Both the position numbers and the translations under genes were made by a program. From Podarcis erhardii (taxonomy: Eukaryota): a DNA stretch of 64,000 nt. The stretch is taken from NCBI GenBank assembly GCA_964252035.1, contig OZ176200.1. The stretch is one strand, 5' to 3'. Below are positions 38,120 to 57,984 of this stretch, piece after piece. The notes below the pieces were generated by a model. That model made no database searches and was not told the origin of the DNA. It saw only the letters and a program-made list of their open reading frames with translations. Each line of letters starts with the position of its first letter. Position 1 is the stretch's first letter.

Positions 38120-38160
38120 CTCTTTATGAAACAATGTGTGTGTCCATGGAGGAATACATT
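38120..38160 (-). other. AKAP6: 41-nt 3'UTR portion of the large exon, ending at donor GAG|gtaggt
   Basis: After TAG: AATGTATTCC...CATAAAGAG then gtaggtact at 38119. Human AKAP6 is recalled to have a donor about 40 nt after the stop. Confidence 0.78.
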
Positions 38161-41100
38161 CTACCTCTGTGTATTTATGTGCCTTTCTTTGTGAAGATGC
38201 AGGAGGTTTTCTTCACATGTAAGAGTTTTAGTGTCCCGGTGCAAAACACCCTTCTCTTTCAAGTGATCAGGCATTAATTGAATGGCTTCAGCTGAGGCCT
38301 TTATAGAGGAAGCAAAACCTTCTTCAGACCTTGCGATCCCAAGTGGCTCTCCGAGATGATTTTCTTTAGAGTTATTTGGGAAGGAATTCAAGACTGGACA
38401 TTCATTAGGGATGTCTAGACTCAAAGATTCACTAGCATAACTTAAATTATCTGGTATCATCTGGCTAAGAGAGCCAGGCATGCTGATGTCCATTTCCTCA
38501 CTTAAGAAAGAAAAGCCACTACATTCAGCAGATATTTTAGGTTCATCTGTTAAATCCAGGGCTTCGTATTTTACTTCCACTTCACTGTCAGGAAGATATC
38601 CCTGCTGTTCCACTCGTTCATCTTCAGGACAGGCTTCAAAAAAGCATTCAATATTTTCCGCAAAGTCTAGAGGGACTGGAGTGCTGGTCTTTTCTTCAAC
38701 ATATTTAGTTACCTCCCCACAGTCACTGTCATGGGAAGAAAGTGAGAGGTACGAATAAAAATCACCTTTTCTAAGTTGAATGGGCCTGTGAGAATGTTCT
38801 AGAACCTTTTCCCTGATCTGGGCTAATGAATGTGGAACAGCTGGTTCACTTTCAGGCTGAGACTTGTTCTTTAAGGCTGTTGAGGCCATGTCAATTATCT
38901 CCATCACAAAGTTGTGCACTGAACAATCCTCCTCATTTCTTTTATCAAAAGCAGCAGTTTCACAGCTACAACAGGAATCACTACAGCCAGCTGATGCATT
39001 TTCTTCTGCTTCATTTGATTTTAAAGATTCACAGCAATCTCCGCCATGTTCACTAATTCCTGTTCTGCTTTGCTGATCATTTGGCAGCGATTTTGGTAAT
39101 GCCATATCTGAACTTTTCATATCCGAGTCAAATTCTGTAAAAGGTTTTATAATAGAATGGCCTTCAAACTGAATATGTTTTTTATATTCTTTCTGAGAGC
39201 TGGATATTTTTGACAATTGAGCTGGCTCTTTACCATCCATACGTGAATCATCCGAACTATCAGTAAATGCTTCACAGATACAACATTCATTTTCACTTCC
39301 TTTACTAAGTGGGCTAACATTCATGGCAGCAGTTGAAATTTGAATATGTTCTTCCTTTGGACTTTCTTGTGTAATAGTAACATTTCCATTCTCCATGTCA
39401 TCCACAAAGTGATCTTTGGAAACTTGAAAGCCATCATTTTTCATTTGCCTTTTTGTCCCTGACTCATCATGGCTCTCTGATGTGTTCTTACTGTTGCCAT
39501 TATTTTTTGAAAGCTTGCGTATGGAATCATTCAAGAATTTTTCAATGCTCAATGAATCTTTTGCTTTCAAAGTCTCATTACTTCTTAAATTCTTACAGCC
39601 CTGGATTTCATCATCCAGATTGCACTTTCTCTTCTCCTTTGTCAGATTAAATTTTGGTCTGATCCAAGTGTAGAGTTCATTCTTTATGTAGTCAAGTCCT
39701 GAAATTAAATTGCAGTCTTCATAAATATCCTCATCAGTTGCAATACTAGAATCATCATCTTCATCTTTAATGCCTAGCTCTTCCTCAGTCAAGGTGAGAG
39801 TAGAACTTGATAGCAAATCACTATCATCTTCATCATCAGTGCAAGCGGAGGTACAGGAAACATTAACAATCATGCTAACGTTGACATCGCTCTCATCAGC
39901 TACCGACCGACTGAGGTGTTTTCTGAATGATGCATTTGAATCTGGTGCTTTATTTCTGTGCAGTACAATATCTTCAGAGCACAAAGACAGGTCATCGCTG
40001 CTGCTTAGCTCAGTGAGAGAAGCCGGTGAATCTTCATTGATAGAAGACGCAATATCCAATGACAACTGGCCAGCCAAGGACATTCTTTGAGAAGTGCTTT
40101 GGAGTGTGATATCAGAGATGCTACGCTTTATTTTTTGGTCTAAAGGGCTCTGGATATTTTCCAGACGATTCAAAAGGTCTAAGGTCCTTTTGCTAAGTTC
40201 CCCAACTGAATCACTACTTCCACTTAGGTCTCCAGAGCCATTGCAACTAAAAAGATCTTCATTGCTTTTGTAGGGTGTTAGCCAACTCTCCAAGGATGTG
40301 CTACGATGAAGCCCATCTCCACTTCTAAAAACAGTCGAGCCAAACAACTCATTTGTCACCGAAAGGGAGTCTAAAGAAGAGCTATGAGATAAAGTTGGGC
40401 ACAGCTTTGCATTTGTTGGGTCGCTCAGTTTCTTCAAATCCTCCACAAATTCACAGCGTTTGGGGTCTCCATCATCCAAGTTGGTTGAGAAAGCAATCTC
40501 ATCTGTAGATACAAGTGGCTTGAACTCTAAAGGTTGATGTTCCGATTTCAAGGGGACTTTATCAAAATAAAAGCCATGAAGCAAACTACCCTGCTTATGT
40601 GCTTTTTCTGAGTTTGATTGTTTCATTATGATTGGTAGCTTGAATTTGGAACCCTGAAGGTAAGAATAGTCATAAAATGTAAAGACATTGTGTTTTCCTT
40701 GTTGCAACTCTTCTGAACCCTCAGAGCCCTGTTGGGCGATGCTGCCCAGGCTTTTAGCTCTGTCGCTGGACTTTGACTGGGAAGTATTTAAGAAATTAAA
40801 ATGGATCTCCCCATCCGCTTGCTTTAAATTTTGTTTTATCACATCAACTATATTCCCTAACTGGGAATCTGAAATGCTAGTCACAGAATTATCCTGCTTT
40901 CTATCAGTATCATTTTGCAAATGGACATCAGGATTTTGGATAGCTTCTGCCTCACTTCCATTGACTGTTTTATTCTGACTGTCAGAATGCCTACTTACAT
41001 TTCCGCTGTGATACATATAATTCTGTGGGCTTGTCAAAGTGGTCCTGCCCATTAGTTCTGGCAAATGTTTGGTTGGTGACAACAAAGAGTTCTTATCCAC

Positions 41101-41490
41101 ATGCTTCTTTAAAGTGTCCAAGTGTGTAAGTGTGGAGGATTTGGATGTCTTTTTCATTAGAGAGATATTATTTTCCCCTGATAGCTCTACATTGTGAAGG
41201 CTGTACACTTGGTAGACCTGTGGAACTGGAGATGCTGTAATGCTTGGGCTGCTGAGGCAATTTTCATGTACAGTGGGATTTTCCTCCTGTTTGGGACAGT
41301 CATTATTACCACATGCTTCATAGGGAGAGTTCAGTTTTGTGTCATCTTGCTTCAGTTCTTGATCAAGCTCATTGAATTCCTCATTAACGCTAATCAACGT
41401 ATTACTTATATCCATTTCATCCCATTCTAGTGCATCTTCATTTGTACCATTCAGCTCCATTAAGCTTGGATCGATAACATTCAGGGATTC
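38161..41490 (-). CDS. AKAP6: AKAP6 large last coding exon (1109 aa + stop; equivalent to human exon 13)
   Basis: 1099-aa ORF in the track plus 10 upstream codons (ESLNVIDPSL) back to the acceptor tttctctgtttttaacag|GAATCC. Contains AKAP6 signatures EDALEWDEMDISN, YQVYSLHNVEL, FTFYDYSYLQGSK, SKRTLDLLNRLENIQSP, DDEDDSDLLSSSTLTLTEEEL, HRPIQLRKGDFYSYLSLSSHDSDCGEV, KTLTCEENLL. TAG at 38163-38161. Confidence 0.97.
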   Translation of the reverse strand, partial: ESLNVIDPSLMELNGTNEDALEWDEMDISNTLISVNEEFNELDQELKQDDTKLNSPYEACGNNDCPKQEENPTVHENCLSSPSITASPVPQVYQVYSLHNVELSGENNISLMKKTSKSSTLTHLDTLKKHVDKNSLLSPTKHLPELMGRTTLTSPQNYMYHSGNVSRHSDSQNKTVNGSEAEAIQNPDVHLQNDTDRKQDNSVTSISDSQLGNIVDVIKQNLKQADGEIHFNFLNTSQSKSSDRAKSLGSIAQQGSEGSEELQQGKHNVFTFYDYSYLQGSKFKLPIIMKQSNSEKAHKQGSLLHGFYFDKVPLKSEHQPLEFKPLVSTDEIAFSTNLDDGDPKRCEFVEDLKKLSDPTNAKLCPTLSHSSSLDSLSVTNELFGSTVFRSGDGLHRSTSLESWLTPYKSNEDLFSCNGSGDLSGSSDSVGELSKRTLDLLNRLENIQSPLDQKIKRSISDITLQSTSQRMSLAGQLSLDIASSINEDSPASLTELSSSDDLSLCSEDIVLHRNKAPDSNASFRKHLSRSVADESDVNVSMIVNVSCTSACTDDEDDSDLLSSSTLTLTEEELGIKDEDDDSSIATDEDIYEDCNLISGLDYIKNELYTWIRPKFNLTKEKRKCNLDDEIQGCKNLRSNETLKAKDSLSIEKFLNDSIRKLSKNNGNSKNTSESHDESGTKRQMKNDGFQVSKDHFVDDMENGNVTITQESPKEEHIQISTAAMNVSPLSKGSENECCICEAFTDSSDDSRMDGKEPAQLSKISSSQKEYKKHIQFEGHSIIKPFTEFDSDMKSSDMALPKSLPNDQQSRTGISEHGGDCCESLKSNEAEENASAGCSDSCCSCETAAFDKRNEEDCSVHNFVMEIIDMASTALKNKSQPESEPAVPHSLAQIREKVLEHSHRPIQLRKGDFYSYLSLSSHDSDCGEVTKYVEEKTSTPVPLDFAENIECFFEACPEDERVEQQGYLPDSEVEVKYEALDLTDEPKISAECSGFSFLSEEMDISMPGSLSQMIPDNLSYASESLSLDIPNECPVLNSFPNNSKENHLGEPLGIARSEEGFASSIKASAEAIQLMPDHLKEKGVLHRDTKTLTCEENLLHLHKERHINTQR
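38869..38922 (-). other. AKAP6: PKA-RII binding amphipathic helix (SVHNFVMEIIDMASTALK)
   Basis: Hydrophobic residues at helix positions 1,4,5,8,9,12,16 fit the AKAP consensus; matches the recalled mAKAP RII site VHNFVKEIIDMASTALK. Confidence 0.85.

Positions 41491-46938: not shown

Positions 46939-46940
<2 letters not shown>

Positions 46941-46986
<46 letters not shown>
46941..46986. repeat. (AAT)15 microsatellite
   Basis: Direct reading. Confidence 0.95.
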
Positions 46987-46991
<5 letters not shown>

Positions 46992-49221: not shown

Positions 49222-51138
49222 TATTTATTTGTTGCACCCACCCTGGGTATTGCAACAAAGGGCAGGATAGAAGTTTGTTTTAGAAAAAAAAAAAATAAAA
49301 AAATCTACAAAGGAGCCTGCTTATGTATCCCAATCTCCTTGGTGGAACAAAAGAGGGTCAGTTGTATGACTAAGATAGTATTCTGAGGCCAGTTATCATA
49401 GTTCTTTCTTTTCCCATGTTATTGTAATTACCTTGTAAGCCTGAAGGCAGAGCCATATTGCTTGTTTCAGGTGCTTGCCGTATTGCTTATAGAAACTGCC
49501 TGTATATATTTTTTTAAATGTTGCCTTCCATCTTGCAATTGCTCTAAGTGTGCTCTAAGTGTGGAACTGCAAAATATAGGGGCCAGGAGCTAACACTACT
49601 TACGAAAGAAAACTGACGAGCAACAAGAGCCTGGGCTTGAATACATCCCTCTGCTTGCAAGCAAGTGATTTTGGTAATAGAAATGACCAAAATCGCACAG
49701 CAGTTCCAGTACTACAACCCCCAATGCTATAATTGTAGCGAAACACACACACACACACACATACGGCCTATGAGGTGCAATATGTCTATAGCAAATGAGG
49801 CACTAACAGCTAATAGCAACAGGGGAGAAAAATATCAGTATTAATGGCACTGATACAATTTCCCATTATCTAAGTGTATCAGGTCTGTGTGTGCACTAAA
49901 TGCGATATATTTTTGTACAATCTGTAGCATTCTGGGGATATGTTCATGGCTCCTAGTTCCATGATGAATTACAGTGTCCCCCCCCCCCAATAGTAATAAT
50001 AACAGTACTACTACTAATAATTTTGAACTGCAAAAATTCAGCATCTTTCAACATTGCTGAGTAAACTGACTGCATAAGCGATGACTCCATAAACTTTAGG
50101 AACTCATTTATTATGTTGCTAGATCAGACACTGCATTTATTCACACAGTGCATCTATAAAACTGAGCTTTCATTAGAGTCATGGGGAGGCCCAAGCCTCT
50201 TTCTCTTCACTTGAGAAGGTGAAGCTCAAGAAGATAATTAAACATGAAACAATGAGGAGGCTTGCTGGGTAAGCAGTAGTGTGAAAACAGTTACTCCTCA
50301 CAAAAGAGGGGAAATTAGCTGGCTGGATAAAAGAGGAAGTGTCAGACTGGAAGACTGGAAGGAGGACTCTGCCAGCATAAGCGGGGAGAGCTCCATGCAT
50401 CATTAATGCCATTTTTTTAACACTTAAGCTCCACAGCTGTCCAAGTCCAAACACATTCAAATGCCACACATTCAGAGAAATGAATATGCTGTGTTGAAAT
50501 TATTTCCCTTAAACTTCCCATGTTCATCTTTCACTCGTTGCAGCCAACTGCCAAATGTAGCAGGCTCTCAGTGGAGCATCTTTGTTTACAGAGTCAGTGC
50601 AAACAGAGCCTTCTAAAGAGATTCAGTGTCGTCATTATATTATAACAAACACATCATTTTTTTACATTGTAAACACCAATATTTCCAGGAACAGAAAGTT
50701 TGGTTTGATTTTGATGCTTTCAAACTGTGCAGTTTCATTTGTGATGTGCTGTTTCCTTTCAGAACTTCCCTTCTCCAGAACAGTGTTCCCTGAAGCAGCC
50801 AGGATTCCCCCCCCCCTTTTTTGGCAGAGGTTCAGGTGCACACAGTGCCAAAAGAAATAGAATAAACAAACACTGCTTAATGCAGCTGGCTAGGTAATTT
50901 ACATATTACTGCACACCAAATATGGAGACCTGAATATGGATTAGAACTCCTGTGATGATACAAATGCTGTATAGATAAAGAAAATGAAAAATTCTACATA
51001 ACCATCAATTTACCTTTCTCGGGAGTGACATTTTACTGTGAAATATATATAGAAACACATAGGAACATTAAAATATATATGGGGAAATAGGTACACTGTA
51101 GATGTTTGTGTATATGCTTATGTCAGTCCATCCATCTA

Positions 51139-51141
<3 letters not shown>

Positions 51142-51179
<38 letters not shown>
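51142..51179. repeat. (AC)19 microsatellite
   Basis: Direct reading. Confidence 0.95.
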
Positions 51180-54311: not shown

Positions 54312-56199
54312 CCATTTCATAGGCAGGTAGTCTGAATTATTCACAAATCCTTTTCACTTAATCAAATGAATGAACTAAATGAAATAAACTTTATGCAAAT
54401 AGACTTGACACATGACTGGATGGGGAAAGTGCATTGGGGAGTGCTCTAGAATTTTAAGGAAAAACCACAGCAATTCAATGCCAGCTTTCATATTGACATA
54501 CACTGACAATATGAGAAACAAACTGTCTTCTGCTATCAGTCCTAGAGAAACTTTATGTTTTGGGGGAAACTGTGGATATTGTAAAAAGATCTTTTAAAAG
54601 GCAGCAAAAAGTTCTTTTAAAAAGCTACTAATATATATATATATATCTCCAAGCTCTTTACAAATAATTTCAACATAACCCCCGAGCATGAATAATACGT
54701 TGCCATTAGGGACCATGAAAAGGAAAATGGTCAAAGGAAAATGCTGATAGATGTATTAAAAGAACAGAAGAGGGAAGCAACTCCTGAACTTCCGTAACAC
54801 ATCTAATCAACCAGGCCAGCATTTGCACTGTCAGTGACTCTTGCCAACACCGAGTCTGATGCCATCAGAGATGTAAACACATCCCATTTGTTTTCATATA
54901 TTACAGTATATTGTGGACAACCTCAAATAAAAAAACTATATACTTGTTTCCCGGGGATACCATTCATGTGCCAAGACTGGCACACCATCAAGTGCAGAGA
55001 GATAGGCAAAGCAGAGAAAGCAATCTTGGGATCAGCCCAAGAAATGACTACACAGGAACTGAATGAAAGGAAATGTTGTAGCATGCCAGCTTGGAATTGG
55101 GAGACGGCAGGGGAGGGAGAGAAAAAGAATGCAAGAGAGACTAGCTAATTTCAGTTCCAACTACAGCATCCTGATTCTAAGAACTCTTTTTATCATCTAA
55201 GAAAATGGAAGATTTGGAAACTAGCCCTGTTTTCATATGGAATGCATATGTTCGTAGCAAGAGGCCTCCCCAAAACGAAAAATAAAACCTATATGGAGAG
55301 TTCTTAATGGCTGCCATTTCTCACCAGTTGCATTCCCTACCAGGTGAAATGTAATTCAGTCCAGCAAAGAAGTCTAGGTTACCCCAGGCAAAATGGGAAC
55401 AAAGCAGTGTGGAGCTTGTGAAGTTCTCTGGCATCCTGACATCAAGAAAACACACAGTGCTTTTACACTCCCCCTACCTCACCTCCCAATCGATTCCTAT
55501 CCAAATAGAGCCACAAGACTACTTCACTCCTGCTGCAAGAGCAGCACTAGCCTTTAATTAGCACGTAGCAGCTTATTTAGAGGAACTGCAGCTAAACCCA
55601 GCAGCAGCAGCTCGCATGGCAAAGATGAGAGTAGCTCCGGCTGCAGTGGCGCTTTTACACGTGTGTTCAGCAGCCTGCAGAGCTTTTTCACAGTTGCCGC
55701 TTGCCTCTGCTTCAGGCAAAAGAGAACAGTCAGCACCAGAAGGTGAAAAAGTGAGAGCACAACACAACAAAAACAATACAGCTTTTTGCCAACTGCTGCT
55801 ATTTTAAGAGGAATAAAGCTTCTGGATCAGATGGGCAGTCTCTGCACCACTACCCTGTAAAGAAAGGACCAGAGCAAGGTCCTGATTTGGCTCTAATAGA
55901 GGGATGGGGTCCAACAAAGGCACCAACACACAGCTGCCCCTGTGGTGTTCTATTTATGTCATGAGCTCCTTTAGGAATGCTGCTATAAAAGCGAGACACT
56001 TTTCAATCTGTCTGTTGCAAGCAATGTCAGAATTCCACAGGTCTTCAACGAAAGGTTGGACGAGCATGTATTGAGGATGCTTTAAATATTGGATAGCTTG
56101 TCTCAGGACAGGCTGAAGTAGATTACATGTAGAACAATTCCAACCTTAATATTTTGAACCCATACAAAACACTTATTTCCATAATAAAAAAAATCCTTC

Positions 56200-56275
56200 C
56201 AATAGCTCCTTAGAGACCAACTAATTTTGTTATTGGTATGAGCTTTCGTGTGCATGCACACTTCTTCAGGTACCA
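56200..56275 (-). mobile_element. Penelope-like element terminal (pLTR) fragment
   Basis: The hammerhead is followed by aataacaaaattagttggtctctaaggagcta, resembling the recalled reptile PLE end (AATAAA...TTGGTCTCTAAGGTGCTAC). Confidence 0.62.
56234..56275 (-). ncRNA. Minimal type I hammerhead ribozyme motif (Penelope-type)
   Basis: Minus strand TGGTAC-CTGAAGA-A-GTGTG-CATG-CACAC-GAAA-GC-TC-ATACCA: core CUGANGA (56269-56263), 5-bp stem II, GAAA (56247-56244), palindromic AGCU in place of stem III, cleavage triplet CUC, stem I UGGUA/UACCA with one C-A mismatch next to the core. Confidence 0.75.
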
Positions 56276-56794: not shown

Positions 56795-57010
56795 GGAATG
56801 CTTTGCCAACTTCTTCTGCAGTCTAGTTTGCCACTGGACAGCTTGCATGACGATGGCTTCCCACCTCCTTTCAAGATTTACAATTATCAGCTGCATTGAC
56901 TGGTGATCTGCGTTCAGGTTACAGGTATCCTGGTCATTAAGGAGGTGCTGGCACAAACGCAAAACTGAGCCCACGCCTCGGCGTCTCTGTTTAATTTCGC
57001 AGCAGAGGGA
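56795..57010 (-). CDS. AKAP6: AKAP6 internal coding exon (end of third spectrin repeat; equivalent to human exon 12), phase 0-0, 72 codons
   Basis: Minus-strand translation SLCCEIKQRRRGVGSVLRLCQHLLNDQDTCNLNADHQSMQLIIVNLERRWEAIVMQAVQWQTRLQKKLAKHS matches AKAP6. Acceptor ctgaccattcttctgtccacag (CAG at 57013-57011); donor TCC|gtaagt (intron starts 56794). Splices in frame to the exon at 41490. Confidence 0.95.
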
Positions 57011-57045
57011 CTGTGGACAGAAGAATGGTCAGTGTCAATGCACTT

Positions 57046-57080
57046 TATAAGTATAAGTATAGGTATAAGTATAAGTATAA
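57046..57080. repeat. (AGTATA)n hexamer repeat just upstream of the exon acceptor at 57011
   Basis: tataagtataagtataggtataagtataagtataa. Confidence 0.85.
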
Positions 57081-57339
57081 TAATTCAGCAGTCACTTGCA
57101 GAGTCCAGTGTTGTTGCTGCTTTAAGAATATTATGCAACACCATACCTTATAGCAGGGGTTCCAAAACTGTGGTCCATGGAGCACCAGTTCATGAACTTC
57201 ATTCAGGTGCTCTGCAGCGCATGAGCATTCAAATTCATATTTGTATTTGTACTGCTTATTTATTATCACCCCTCCTCCCAAAAAGCCCCTCCATGAACAA
57301 ACCAGGTAGGCAGTCAAGAGCCCCAGCACTTCCCCAGTT

Positions 57340-57387
57340 CAACAAACAAACAAACAAACAAACAAACAAACAAACAAACAAACAAAC
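57340..57387. repeat. (AAAC)n microsatellite, about 12 units
   Basis: Direct reading. Confidence 0.95.
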
Positions 57388-57398
57388 AGCATGAGAAC

Positions 57399-57736: not shown

Positions 57737-57792
<56 letters not shown>
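57399..57792 (+). mobile_element. L2 LINE 3' end with (AAC)n tail
   Basis: aaacagcctcggccctgtatacctaaaagagcgtc...gggccttcttggtagtggcgcccgccctgtggaacgccctccc...gaagccgcccagagtggc...gatgggcggggtataaataa, then (AAC)n from 57739. Confidence 0.85.

Positions 57793-57946: not shown

Positions 57947-57984
<38 letters not shown>
57947..57984. repeat. (CA)19 microsatellite
   Basis: Direct reading. Confidence 0.95.

What the first reader, a model, noticed from the sequence alone, without database searches (positions are those of the whole stretch)
55554..55733. Candidate unannotated alternative last exon giving an AKAP6 isoform without the PKA site
Seen: on the AKAP6 strand there is a branch point CTGAC (A at 55730), the tract TGTTCTCTTTTGCCTG and a tandem AAG/CAG acceptor (exon start 55709 or 55706, same frame). 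Joined to the phase-0 donor at 56795 it reads RQAATVKKLCRLLNTRVKAPLQPELLSSLPCELLLLGLAAVPLNKLLRAN* (50 aa). The TAA overlaps the poly(A) hexamer ATTAAA (55558-55553), and six CpGs survive in about 140 bp. Established: the upstream exon ends the spectrin repeats used for nuclear-envelope targeting, while the PKA, PDE4D3, calcineurin and PP2A sites map to the large downstream exon. Inference: the product would be a targeted but signalling-empty anchor with a hydrophobic tail. If the GAG|GTGAGG donor at 55482 is used instead, it becomes an NMD poison exon (stop about 70 nt before the junction).
Basis: partly seen in the sequence, partly recalled or inferred. Interest (0 to 1): 0.7.

Follow-up and report, generated by a model that had tools for sequence, protein, structure and literature searches.

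The report
Probable pseudo-exon in lizard AKAP6 intron
A 150-base stretch inside an intron of a lizard's AKAP6 signalling-scaffold gene carries splice, stop and poly(A) motifs, but equally good look-alikes occur elsewhere in the same gene and no spliced transcript or related protein was found, so it is likely an ordinary unused pseudo-exon.

Summary
They are not beyond chance. In 187 kb of this gene's introns, 4 loci, this one included, meet the same test: acceptor, CTRAY branch point, in-frame ORF of at least 45 codons and poly(A) hexamer. One lies in the same intron at 50322, with a stronger acceptor and two AATAAA. The patch is GpC/CTG-rich, with three of six frames open, which accounts for the Leu-rich tail. 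No protein with this tail was found. The one RNA-guess contig on the exon runs unspliced through the proposed acceptor, and a close relative has CCGAC at the branch point. The RNA test was weak, since the laid RNA runs did not cover the constitutive exon either. A strong donor 224-227 nt downstream makes a low-level poison cassette the best rival. PKA-less short AKAP6 models are already annotated in mammals and cobra. Verdict: probable pseudo-exon, low interest.

The parts
56795..57010 (-). Constitutive AKAP6 coding exon (11th of 12 coding exons modelled; phase 0 at both ends), donor TCC|GTAAGT
   Evidence: 113 hits, named ones annotated AKAP6, 44-96% identity; gene model without stops
55557..55709 (-). 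Candidate pseudo-exon ORF: 51 codons from AAG acceptor (55709), 50 from CAG acceptor (55706); GpC/CTG-rich patch, 53% GC
   Evidence: composition; single copy in own genome
55710..55733 (-). Branch-point-like CTGAC (A 55730) and 16-nt pyrimidine tract; reads CCGAC in a close relative
   Evidence: difference at 55732 in DNA-like run X18
55553..55558 (-). ATTAAA hexamer overlapping the TAA stop (55556-55554); downstream element unremarkable
55477..55485 (-). Strong donor-like GAG|GTGAGG (last exon base 55483); would close a 224/227-nt cassette with the stop 71 nt upstream
   Evidence: score 6.8 against -0.9 to 7.0 for the 11 real donors, matrix recalled
55581..55725 (.). Stretch covered by one 156-nt contig (depth 3.8) of RNA-guess run X2, unspliced across the proposed acceptor
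   Evidence: record 17; depth arithmetic
38120..41490 (-). Large AKAP6 exon (1,109 codons to the stop at 38163-38161) carrying the PKA helix; likely donor GAG|GTAGGT near 38120
50110..50342 (-). Internal control: second look-alike in the same intron (CTGAC, CAG acceptor at 50322, 47-codon in-frame ORF with a hydrophobic stretch, two AATAAA)

Best explanation
The stretch 55709-55483 is likely an unused pseudo-exon: a GpC/CTG-rich patch of an AKAP6 intron with exon-like splice, stop and poly(A) motifs that the spliceosome would normally skip when it joins 56795 to 41490. Shown: the motifs, their frequency in this gene's introns, the compositional bias and the constitutive exon structure. Inferred: that the site is skipped, that the CTG-rich composition produces the open frame and Leu-rich tail, and that any rare mis-spliced product would be removed by NMD (stop 71 nt before the 55483 donor) or, if cleaved at ATTAAA, by hydrophobic-tail quality control.
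For: Composite test met by 4 loci in 186,884 intronic bases, among them 50322 in the same intron with acceptor score 6.5 against 3.0-4.1 here. 556 of 12,577 intronic AGs score at least as well as the CAG acceptor. Three of six frames are open over the 147 nt, and the codon-usage score (-0.009) is below 11 of 12 real exons. 23 GpC and 11 CTG in 153 nt. No homologue: 0 of 78 candidates of 87-2000 aa, none of 26-86 aa, 0 among 1.84 billion representatives, no Pfam match. None of the 113 AKAP6 hits shows this tail in the C-terminal stretch printed. The only RNA-guess contig on the exon includes 16 nt upstream of 55709 with no mismatch, so that molecule is not spliced there; its length and depth fit one duplicated 145-nt fragment, like the intronic pieces at 55900-56142 in X1 and X3. 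No joint was listed in X1-X3. The branch-point T is changed in close relative X18. Pseudo-exons can outnumber exons 10:1 (PMC4318891 passage).
Against: The RNA test had little power (see Tried and rejected). The downstream donor is as strong as the best real AKAP6 donors, and only 3 loci in the gene combine acceptor, CTRAY and such a donor. Codon score, GC and hydrophobicity each lie in the top 5-9% of intron windows. The exon has 0 differences in 153 nt in X18 (P=0.33). A spare TTCAC branch motif at 55744 blunts the branch-point change. Short isoforms can be hidden in clusters with long representatives (cluster 1 mixes 816-2271 aa), and proteins over 2000 aa were not searched. Splice scores rest on recalled matrices, not MaxEntScan or SpliceAI.
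Confidence: 0.72

Rival explanations
1. A real but minor poison cassette exon (55709/55706-55483) that is included in some tissue or state and sends AKAP6 mRNA to NMD, possibly held off by MBNL proteins binding its YGCY cluster.
For: Good exon definition: acceptor 3.0-4.1 within the range of real AKAP6 acceptors and donor 6.8; 224/227 nt; stop 71 nt before the donor. 8 YGCY in 147 nt, reached by 0.3% of 3,794 intron windows. Mbnl2 depletion halves AKAP6-beta mRNA in mouse myoblasts without a 3'UTR mechanism (PMC11853192 passages). That YGCY is the MBNL motif is recalled.
Against: The YGCY count follows from GpC richness (8 of 25 windows with 18 or more GpC reach 8) and was noticed after the fact. 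No junction seen. No conservation shown to mouse, so the Mbnl2 result may not bear on it. 67 loci in the gene pass a looser pseudo-exon test.
Confidence: 0.13
2. One reading: a functional alternative last exon giving an AKAP6 of about 1,258 aa that keeps the spectrin repeats, lacks PKA, PDE4D3 and PP2A sites, and would displace full-length AKAP6 from nesprin-1alpha at the nuclear envelope.
For: In-frame join, stop and hexamer all present; only 2 loci in the gene have acceptor, CTRAY and a hexamer on the stop. SR1-3 fragments displace endogenous AKAP6 (PMC7725499 passage). Short AKAP6 models ending after this exon are annotated in other amniotes. Peak hydropathy 1.88 over 19 residues.
Against: No tail homologue. 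Non-canonical hexamer with ordinary downstream element: U content matched by 42% and GU content by 11% of 322 intronic hexamers. A strong donor 70 nt downstream would be expected to suppress cleavage through U1 (recalled). 7% of open intron frames are as hydrophobic, and such tails tend to be degraded (abstract).
Confidence: 0.06
3. The patch is part of an intronic enhancer (muscle or neuronal), and its GC/CpG richness reflects regulatory use; the exon-like motifs are incidental. Compatible with the best explanation.
For: Five E-boxes in 55936-55658 and a MEF2-like CTTAAAATAG at 55808 next to CAGTTG at 55795; GpC richness in the top 0.2% of windows. Motif names are recalled.
Against: Five or more E-boxes occur in 3-5% of 300-nt intron windows, and 8 of 56 MEF2-like sites have an E-box within 25 nt. 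No chromatin or deep conservation data.
Confidence: 0.09

Closest known systems
Intronic pseudo-exons / cryptic exons (Sun and Chasin type; cited through PMC4318891 passage)
   Same: Exon-sized intronic segment with consensus acceptor, branch point and donor and no evidence of inclusion.
   Different: Non-inclusion here is inferred, not measured in a tissue shown to express AKAP6.
Annotated short AKAP6 models in mammals (P0068, P0069, P0074, P0122-P0125; 1137-1245 aa)
   Same: They end after the same exon, lack the large exon and so the PKA site, and add a short tail of about 11-50 residues.
   Different: Their tail is alike across cats and New World monkeys, begins alike in one dingo model, and is unrelated to the lizard peptide. 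That it arises by skipping the large exon into the last exon is recalled, not tested; no tblastn match of it was found in the lizard stretch.
Cobra model P0002 (Naja naja, 1253 aa)
   Same: Squamate AKAP6 model truncated in this same intron.
   Different: It reads through the donor into the intron (tail aligns to 56794-56735) and does not use this acceptor; it may be an annotation artefact.
AKAP6-alpha and AKAP6-beta (mAKAP-alpha/beta)
   Same: Same gene; the two isoforms described in the reviews read.
   Different: They differ at the N-terminus (beta = alpha 245-2314, PMC13632692 passage) and both keep the PKA site.

Membership tests
Alternative last exon (intronic polyadenylation, skipped type) | Acceptor, branch point and pyrimidine tract | tested here: met
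   moderate score, within the range of real AKAP6 acceptors
Alternative last exon (intronic polyadenylation, skipped type) | Junction reads from the upstream donor | tested here: inconclusive
   0 joints in 7 RNA or RNA-guess runs laid, but the constitutive exon had no cover either
Alternative last exon (intronic polyadenylation, skipped type) | Used poly(A) site (3' ends 10-30 nt after the hexamer) | tested here: inconclusive
   hexamer present; no reads in two single-cell runs that also lacked the constitutive exon; downstream element ordinary
Functional coding exon | Homologous peptide in other species | tested here: not met
   searches have length limits and lacertid proteomes were not shown to be covered
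Functional coding exon | Frame-specific coding signal | tested here: inconclusive
   three of six frames open; codon score below 11 of 12 real exons but above 91-93% of open intron frames
Functional coding exon | Purifying selection (dN/dS, PhyloCSF) | not testable with these tools
   only one close relative seen, 0 differences in 153 nt, P=0.33
Poison (NMD) cassette exon | In-frame stop more than 50-55 nt upstream of a downstream junction | tested here: met
   71 nt to the 55483 donor
Poison (NMD) cassette exon | Inclusion that rises on NMD block; conserved flanks | not testable with these tools
   no such data or distant genomes available
Structured intronic RNA (snoRNA, miRNA) | Rfam match or stable fold | tested here: not met
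   only a 13-bit chance match; fold z = +0.91
Recent repeat insertion | Other copies in the genome | tested here: not met
   single match by DNA; only E of 0.4 or more by peptide in two frames; old diverged repeats are not excluded

The most novel reading that the evidence does not exclude
A lizard-lineage switch exon in AKAP6: one YGCY-rich segment used either as a poison cassette or as a terminal exon, so that RNA-binding proteins such as MBNL choose between full-length AKAP6, mRNA decay, and a PKA-less, hydrophobic-tailed fragment that still binds nesprin-1alpha, AKAP9 and AC5 and uncouples the nuclear-envelope MTOC from cAMP signalling.
Probability: 0.08. Interest if true: 0.5.

Novelty: not a real feature. 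Interest (0 to 1): 0.12.

Why it matters
If it is a pseudo-exon it matters little, except as a worked case that splice, stop, poly(A) and hydrophobic-tail coincidences turn up about once per 50 kb of vertebrate intron. If it were used, it would give a natural way to separate AKAP6's structural role at the nuclear envelope from its PKA/PDE4D3/PP2A signalosome, or to tune AKAP6 level by NMD. Even then, PKA-less short AKAP6 models are already annotated in other amniotes, so it would be a lineage-specific variant of a known kind of event.

Tried and rejected
RNA runs: 24 were listed, none on record as an RNA holder, and 8 of 24 were laid. Raw RNA runs X21-X24 (6-12% of each read) had no depth on the candidate and none on the constitutive exon; only a repeat at 56183-56275 and a few X22 reads at 57027-57300 were covered, so they say nothing. 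Exact look-ups: 0 of 10 (three of these queries were one residue short) and 0 of 8 (corrected ends) were in the collection, so the lizard's own annotated isoform list could not be reached. The peptide queries also lacked the last residue, which does not affect a similarity search. The metagenome scan for orthologous introns gave one distant locus (L002, 62%), useless for intron comparison. Plus-strand exon reading of the X2 contig: its start follows an AG at 55579-55580, but its other end has no donor and the depth fits a duplicated fragment with overhangs, so rejected as the main reading. Structured RNA and repeat origin were not supported. Literature: 0 papers held both 'AKAP6' and 'intronic polyadenylation'; none of the 20 listed of 4,456 for exon skipping, poison exon, alternative last exon or NMD mentioned AKAP6; 20 of 38 listed for AKAP6 isoforms showed no title on such an isoform. 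Earlier scan notes: none. No structure or complex prediction was run.

Full report
Setting. The window lies on contig C1 of a 1.50-Gb genome. The exon at 57010-56795 (minus strand) hits 113 proteins, the named ones annotated AKAP6, with squamate entries closest. With 170 kb of neighbouring genome I built a 12-exon coding model without internal stops, 2,316 aa. The exon at 56795 ends at residue 1208 in phase 0 and joins the 3.3-kb exon at 41490, which carries the PKA helix near residue 2067 (which helix binds PKA was judged from the numbering 2055-2072 in PMC4307244, passages). The finding lies 1.1 kb into this 15.3-kb intron.

Observation.

Chance. I scored all 12,577 AGs in 186,884 intronic bases of AKAP6 with recalled vertebrate splice-site frequencies. 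The candidate acceptors score 4.1 and 3.0; real AKAP6 acceptors score -1.2 to 10.3; 556 intronic AGs reach 3.0. Adding a CTRAY branch point, an in-frame ORF of at least 45 codons and an AATAAA/ATTAAA within 200 nt of the stop leaves 4 loci, this one included. One, at 50322 in the same intron, has a stronger acceptor (6.5), CTGAC at -20, 47 codons with a hydrophobic stretch and two AATAAA; it lacks the CpGs and a strong donor. Against this reading, tighter combinations are rarer: 2 loci have acceptor, CTRAY and a hexamer on the stop, and 3 have acceptor, CTRAY and a donor of 6.8 or more. The candidate is in the upper tail, but it was picked from a 64-kb window for just these traits.

Composition. 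The 147-nt core is 54% GC (top 5.5% of 3,794 intron windows). Among 371 GC-matched windows 20% have at least 6 CpG and 18% are open in a given frame. Three of six frames are open here. The odd trait is GpC/CTG richness: 23 GpC and 11 CTG in 153 nt, top 0.2%. That bias explains the leucines and the lack of stops. The codon-usage score is below 11 of 12 real exons but above 91-93% of open intron frames; peak hydropathy 1.88 is matched by 7% of them. Hydrophobic C-tails are reported as typical of noncoding translation and as BAG6 substrates (10.1101/2022.07.20.500724, abstract and outline only).

Homologues. The tail has no match among 78 candidates of 87-2000 aa, none at 26-86 aa, none among 1.84 billion representatives and none in Pfam. 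It is single-copy in the genome. Among the 113 AKAP6 hits, the printed stretch after this exon is the large exon, intron read-through, a sequence end or another tail, never this one; for about 15 rows my anchor missed the junction and only another part was printed. The absence is weak, since clusters mix short and long members and proteins above 2000 aa were not searched. Short PKA-less models do exist: a cobra model reading through the donor (P0002) and cat, tiger, New World monkey and dog-family models of 1137-1245 aa, the cat and monkey ones sharing one tail. These are database annotations, not tested isoforms.

Transcripts and a relative. Eight of 24 listed runs were laid. The four raw RNA runs were uninformative. 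In contig run X2 (RNA is a guess) one 156-nt record at depth 3.8 matches 55581-55725 without a mismatch, with 6 and 5 letters left over. It passes through the proposed acceptor into the tract, so it is unspliced pre-mRNA or DNA. One 145-nt fragment sequenced twice with short overhangs would give depth 3.83; this is inference. X1 and X3 hold similar low-depth pieces at 55900-56142, outside the candidate. No joint was listed. X18, which behaves as DNA of a close relative (7 differences in 948 nt), reads CCGAC at the branch point, has no change in the 153-nt exon (P=0.33) and one synonymous change in the real exon. A spare TTCAC at 55744 makes the branch-point change weak evidence.

Mechanism. 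Most likely the spliceosome skips the segment and it has no product (0.72). If it is ever recognised, the strong donor makes a 224/227-nt cassette with a premature stop more likely than a terminal exon (0.13 against 0.06), since a nearby donor would be expected to suppress cleavage at a non-canonical hexamer (recalled). The 8 YGCY motifs, and the report that Mbnl2 loss halves AKAP6-beta mRNA without a 3'UTR mechanism (PMC11853192, passages), make an MBNL-repressed poison exon worth one test, but the motif count follows from GpC richness and no link to mouse is shown. An enhancer reading (0.09) rests on five E-boxes and a MEF2-like site, seen in 3-5% of windows. A truncated protein would not be signalling-empty: AC5 binds 245-340 (PMC5872350, passage) and AKAP9/Pcnt bind SR1; SR1-3 fragments displace endogenous AKAP6 (PMC7725499, passages). 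The rat SR3 construct there spans 1065-1286, into the large exon, so a complete SR3 in the truncated form is likely but was not shown here.

Known and novel. The reviews read in passages (PMC13632692; PMC4307244; PMC5872362) describe only the alpha and beta forms. My searches found no paper on an intronic-polyadenylation or poison isoform of AKAP6; the library lacks most subscription papers and I read no supplements. Pseudo-exons are common (PMC4318891, passage). Verdict: observation confirmed, interpretation not shown; probable pseudo-exon, interest 0.12, with a probability of about 0.19 that it is used at all.

Noticed in passing
window 56183-56275: Short abundant repeat fragment (hundreds of reads in every run, most 90-95% alike), the main covered spot in the raw RNA runs; family not identified.
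   Followed up: partly
window 50342-50110 (-): Second last-exon look-alike in the same intron: CTGAC, strong CAG acceptor at 50322, 47 in-frame codons with a hydrophobic stretch, two AATAAA 40 and 69 nt after the stop.
   Followed up: partly
window 55854 (-): Strongest acceptor-like site listed for the intron (score 10.9, tract ending TTTACAG|G), 145 nt upstream of the candidate, without a consensus branch point or good donor.
   Followed up: no
window 38163-38114 (-): The AKAP6 stop lies about 41 nt before a donor-like GAG|GTAGGT, so the last exon is probably non-coding and further down the window; it was not located.
   Followed up: partly
window 55936-55658: Five E-boxes and a MEF2-like CTTAAAATAG at 55808 beside CAGTTG at 55795.
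   Followed up: partly
L015 (G000:C1:35844071, -): Another strong pseudo-exon in an upstream AKAP6 intron: branch point, acceptor, stop under a poly(A) hexamer and donor score 7.9 at 280 nt.
   Followed up: no
L026 and L027 (G000:C1:35950429 and 35960973, -): Two real AKAP6 exons are modelled with unusual AAG acceptors, one in a tandem GAG/AAG.
   Followed up: no
window 46940-46987, 51142-51179, 57046-57080, 57341-57388, 57740-57792, 57947-57984: Six microsatellites (TAA, AC, TATAAG, AACA, AAC, CA); the TATAAG array is one unit shorter in relative X18.
   Followed up: no
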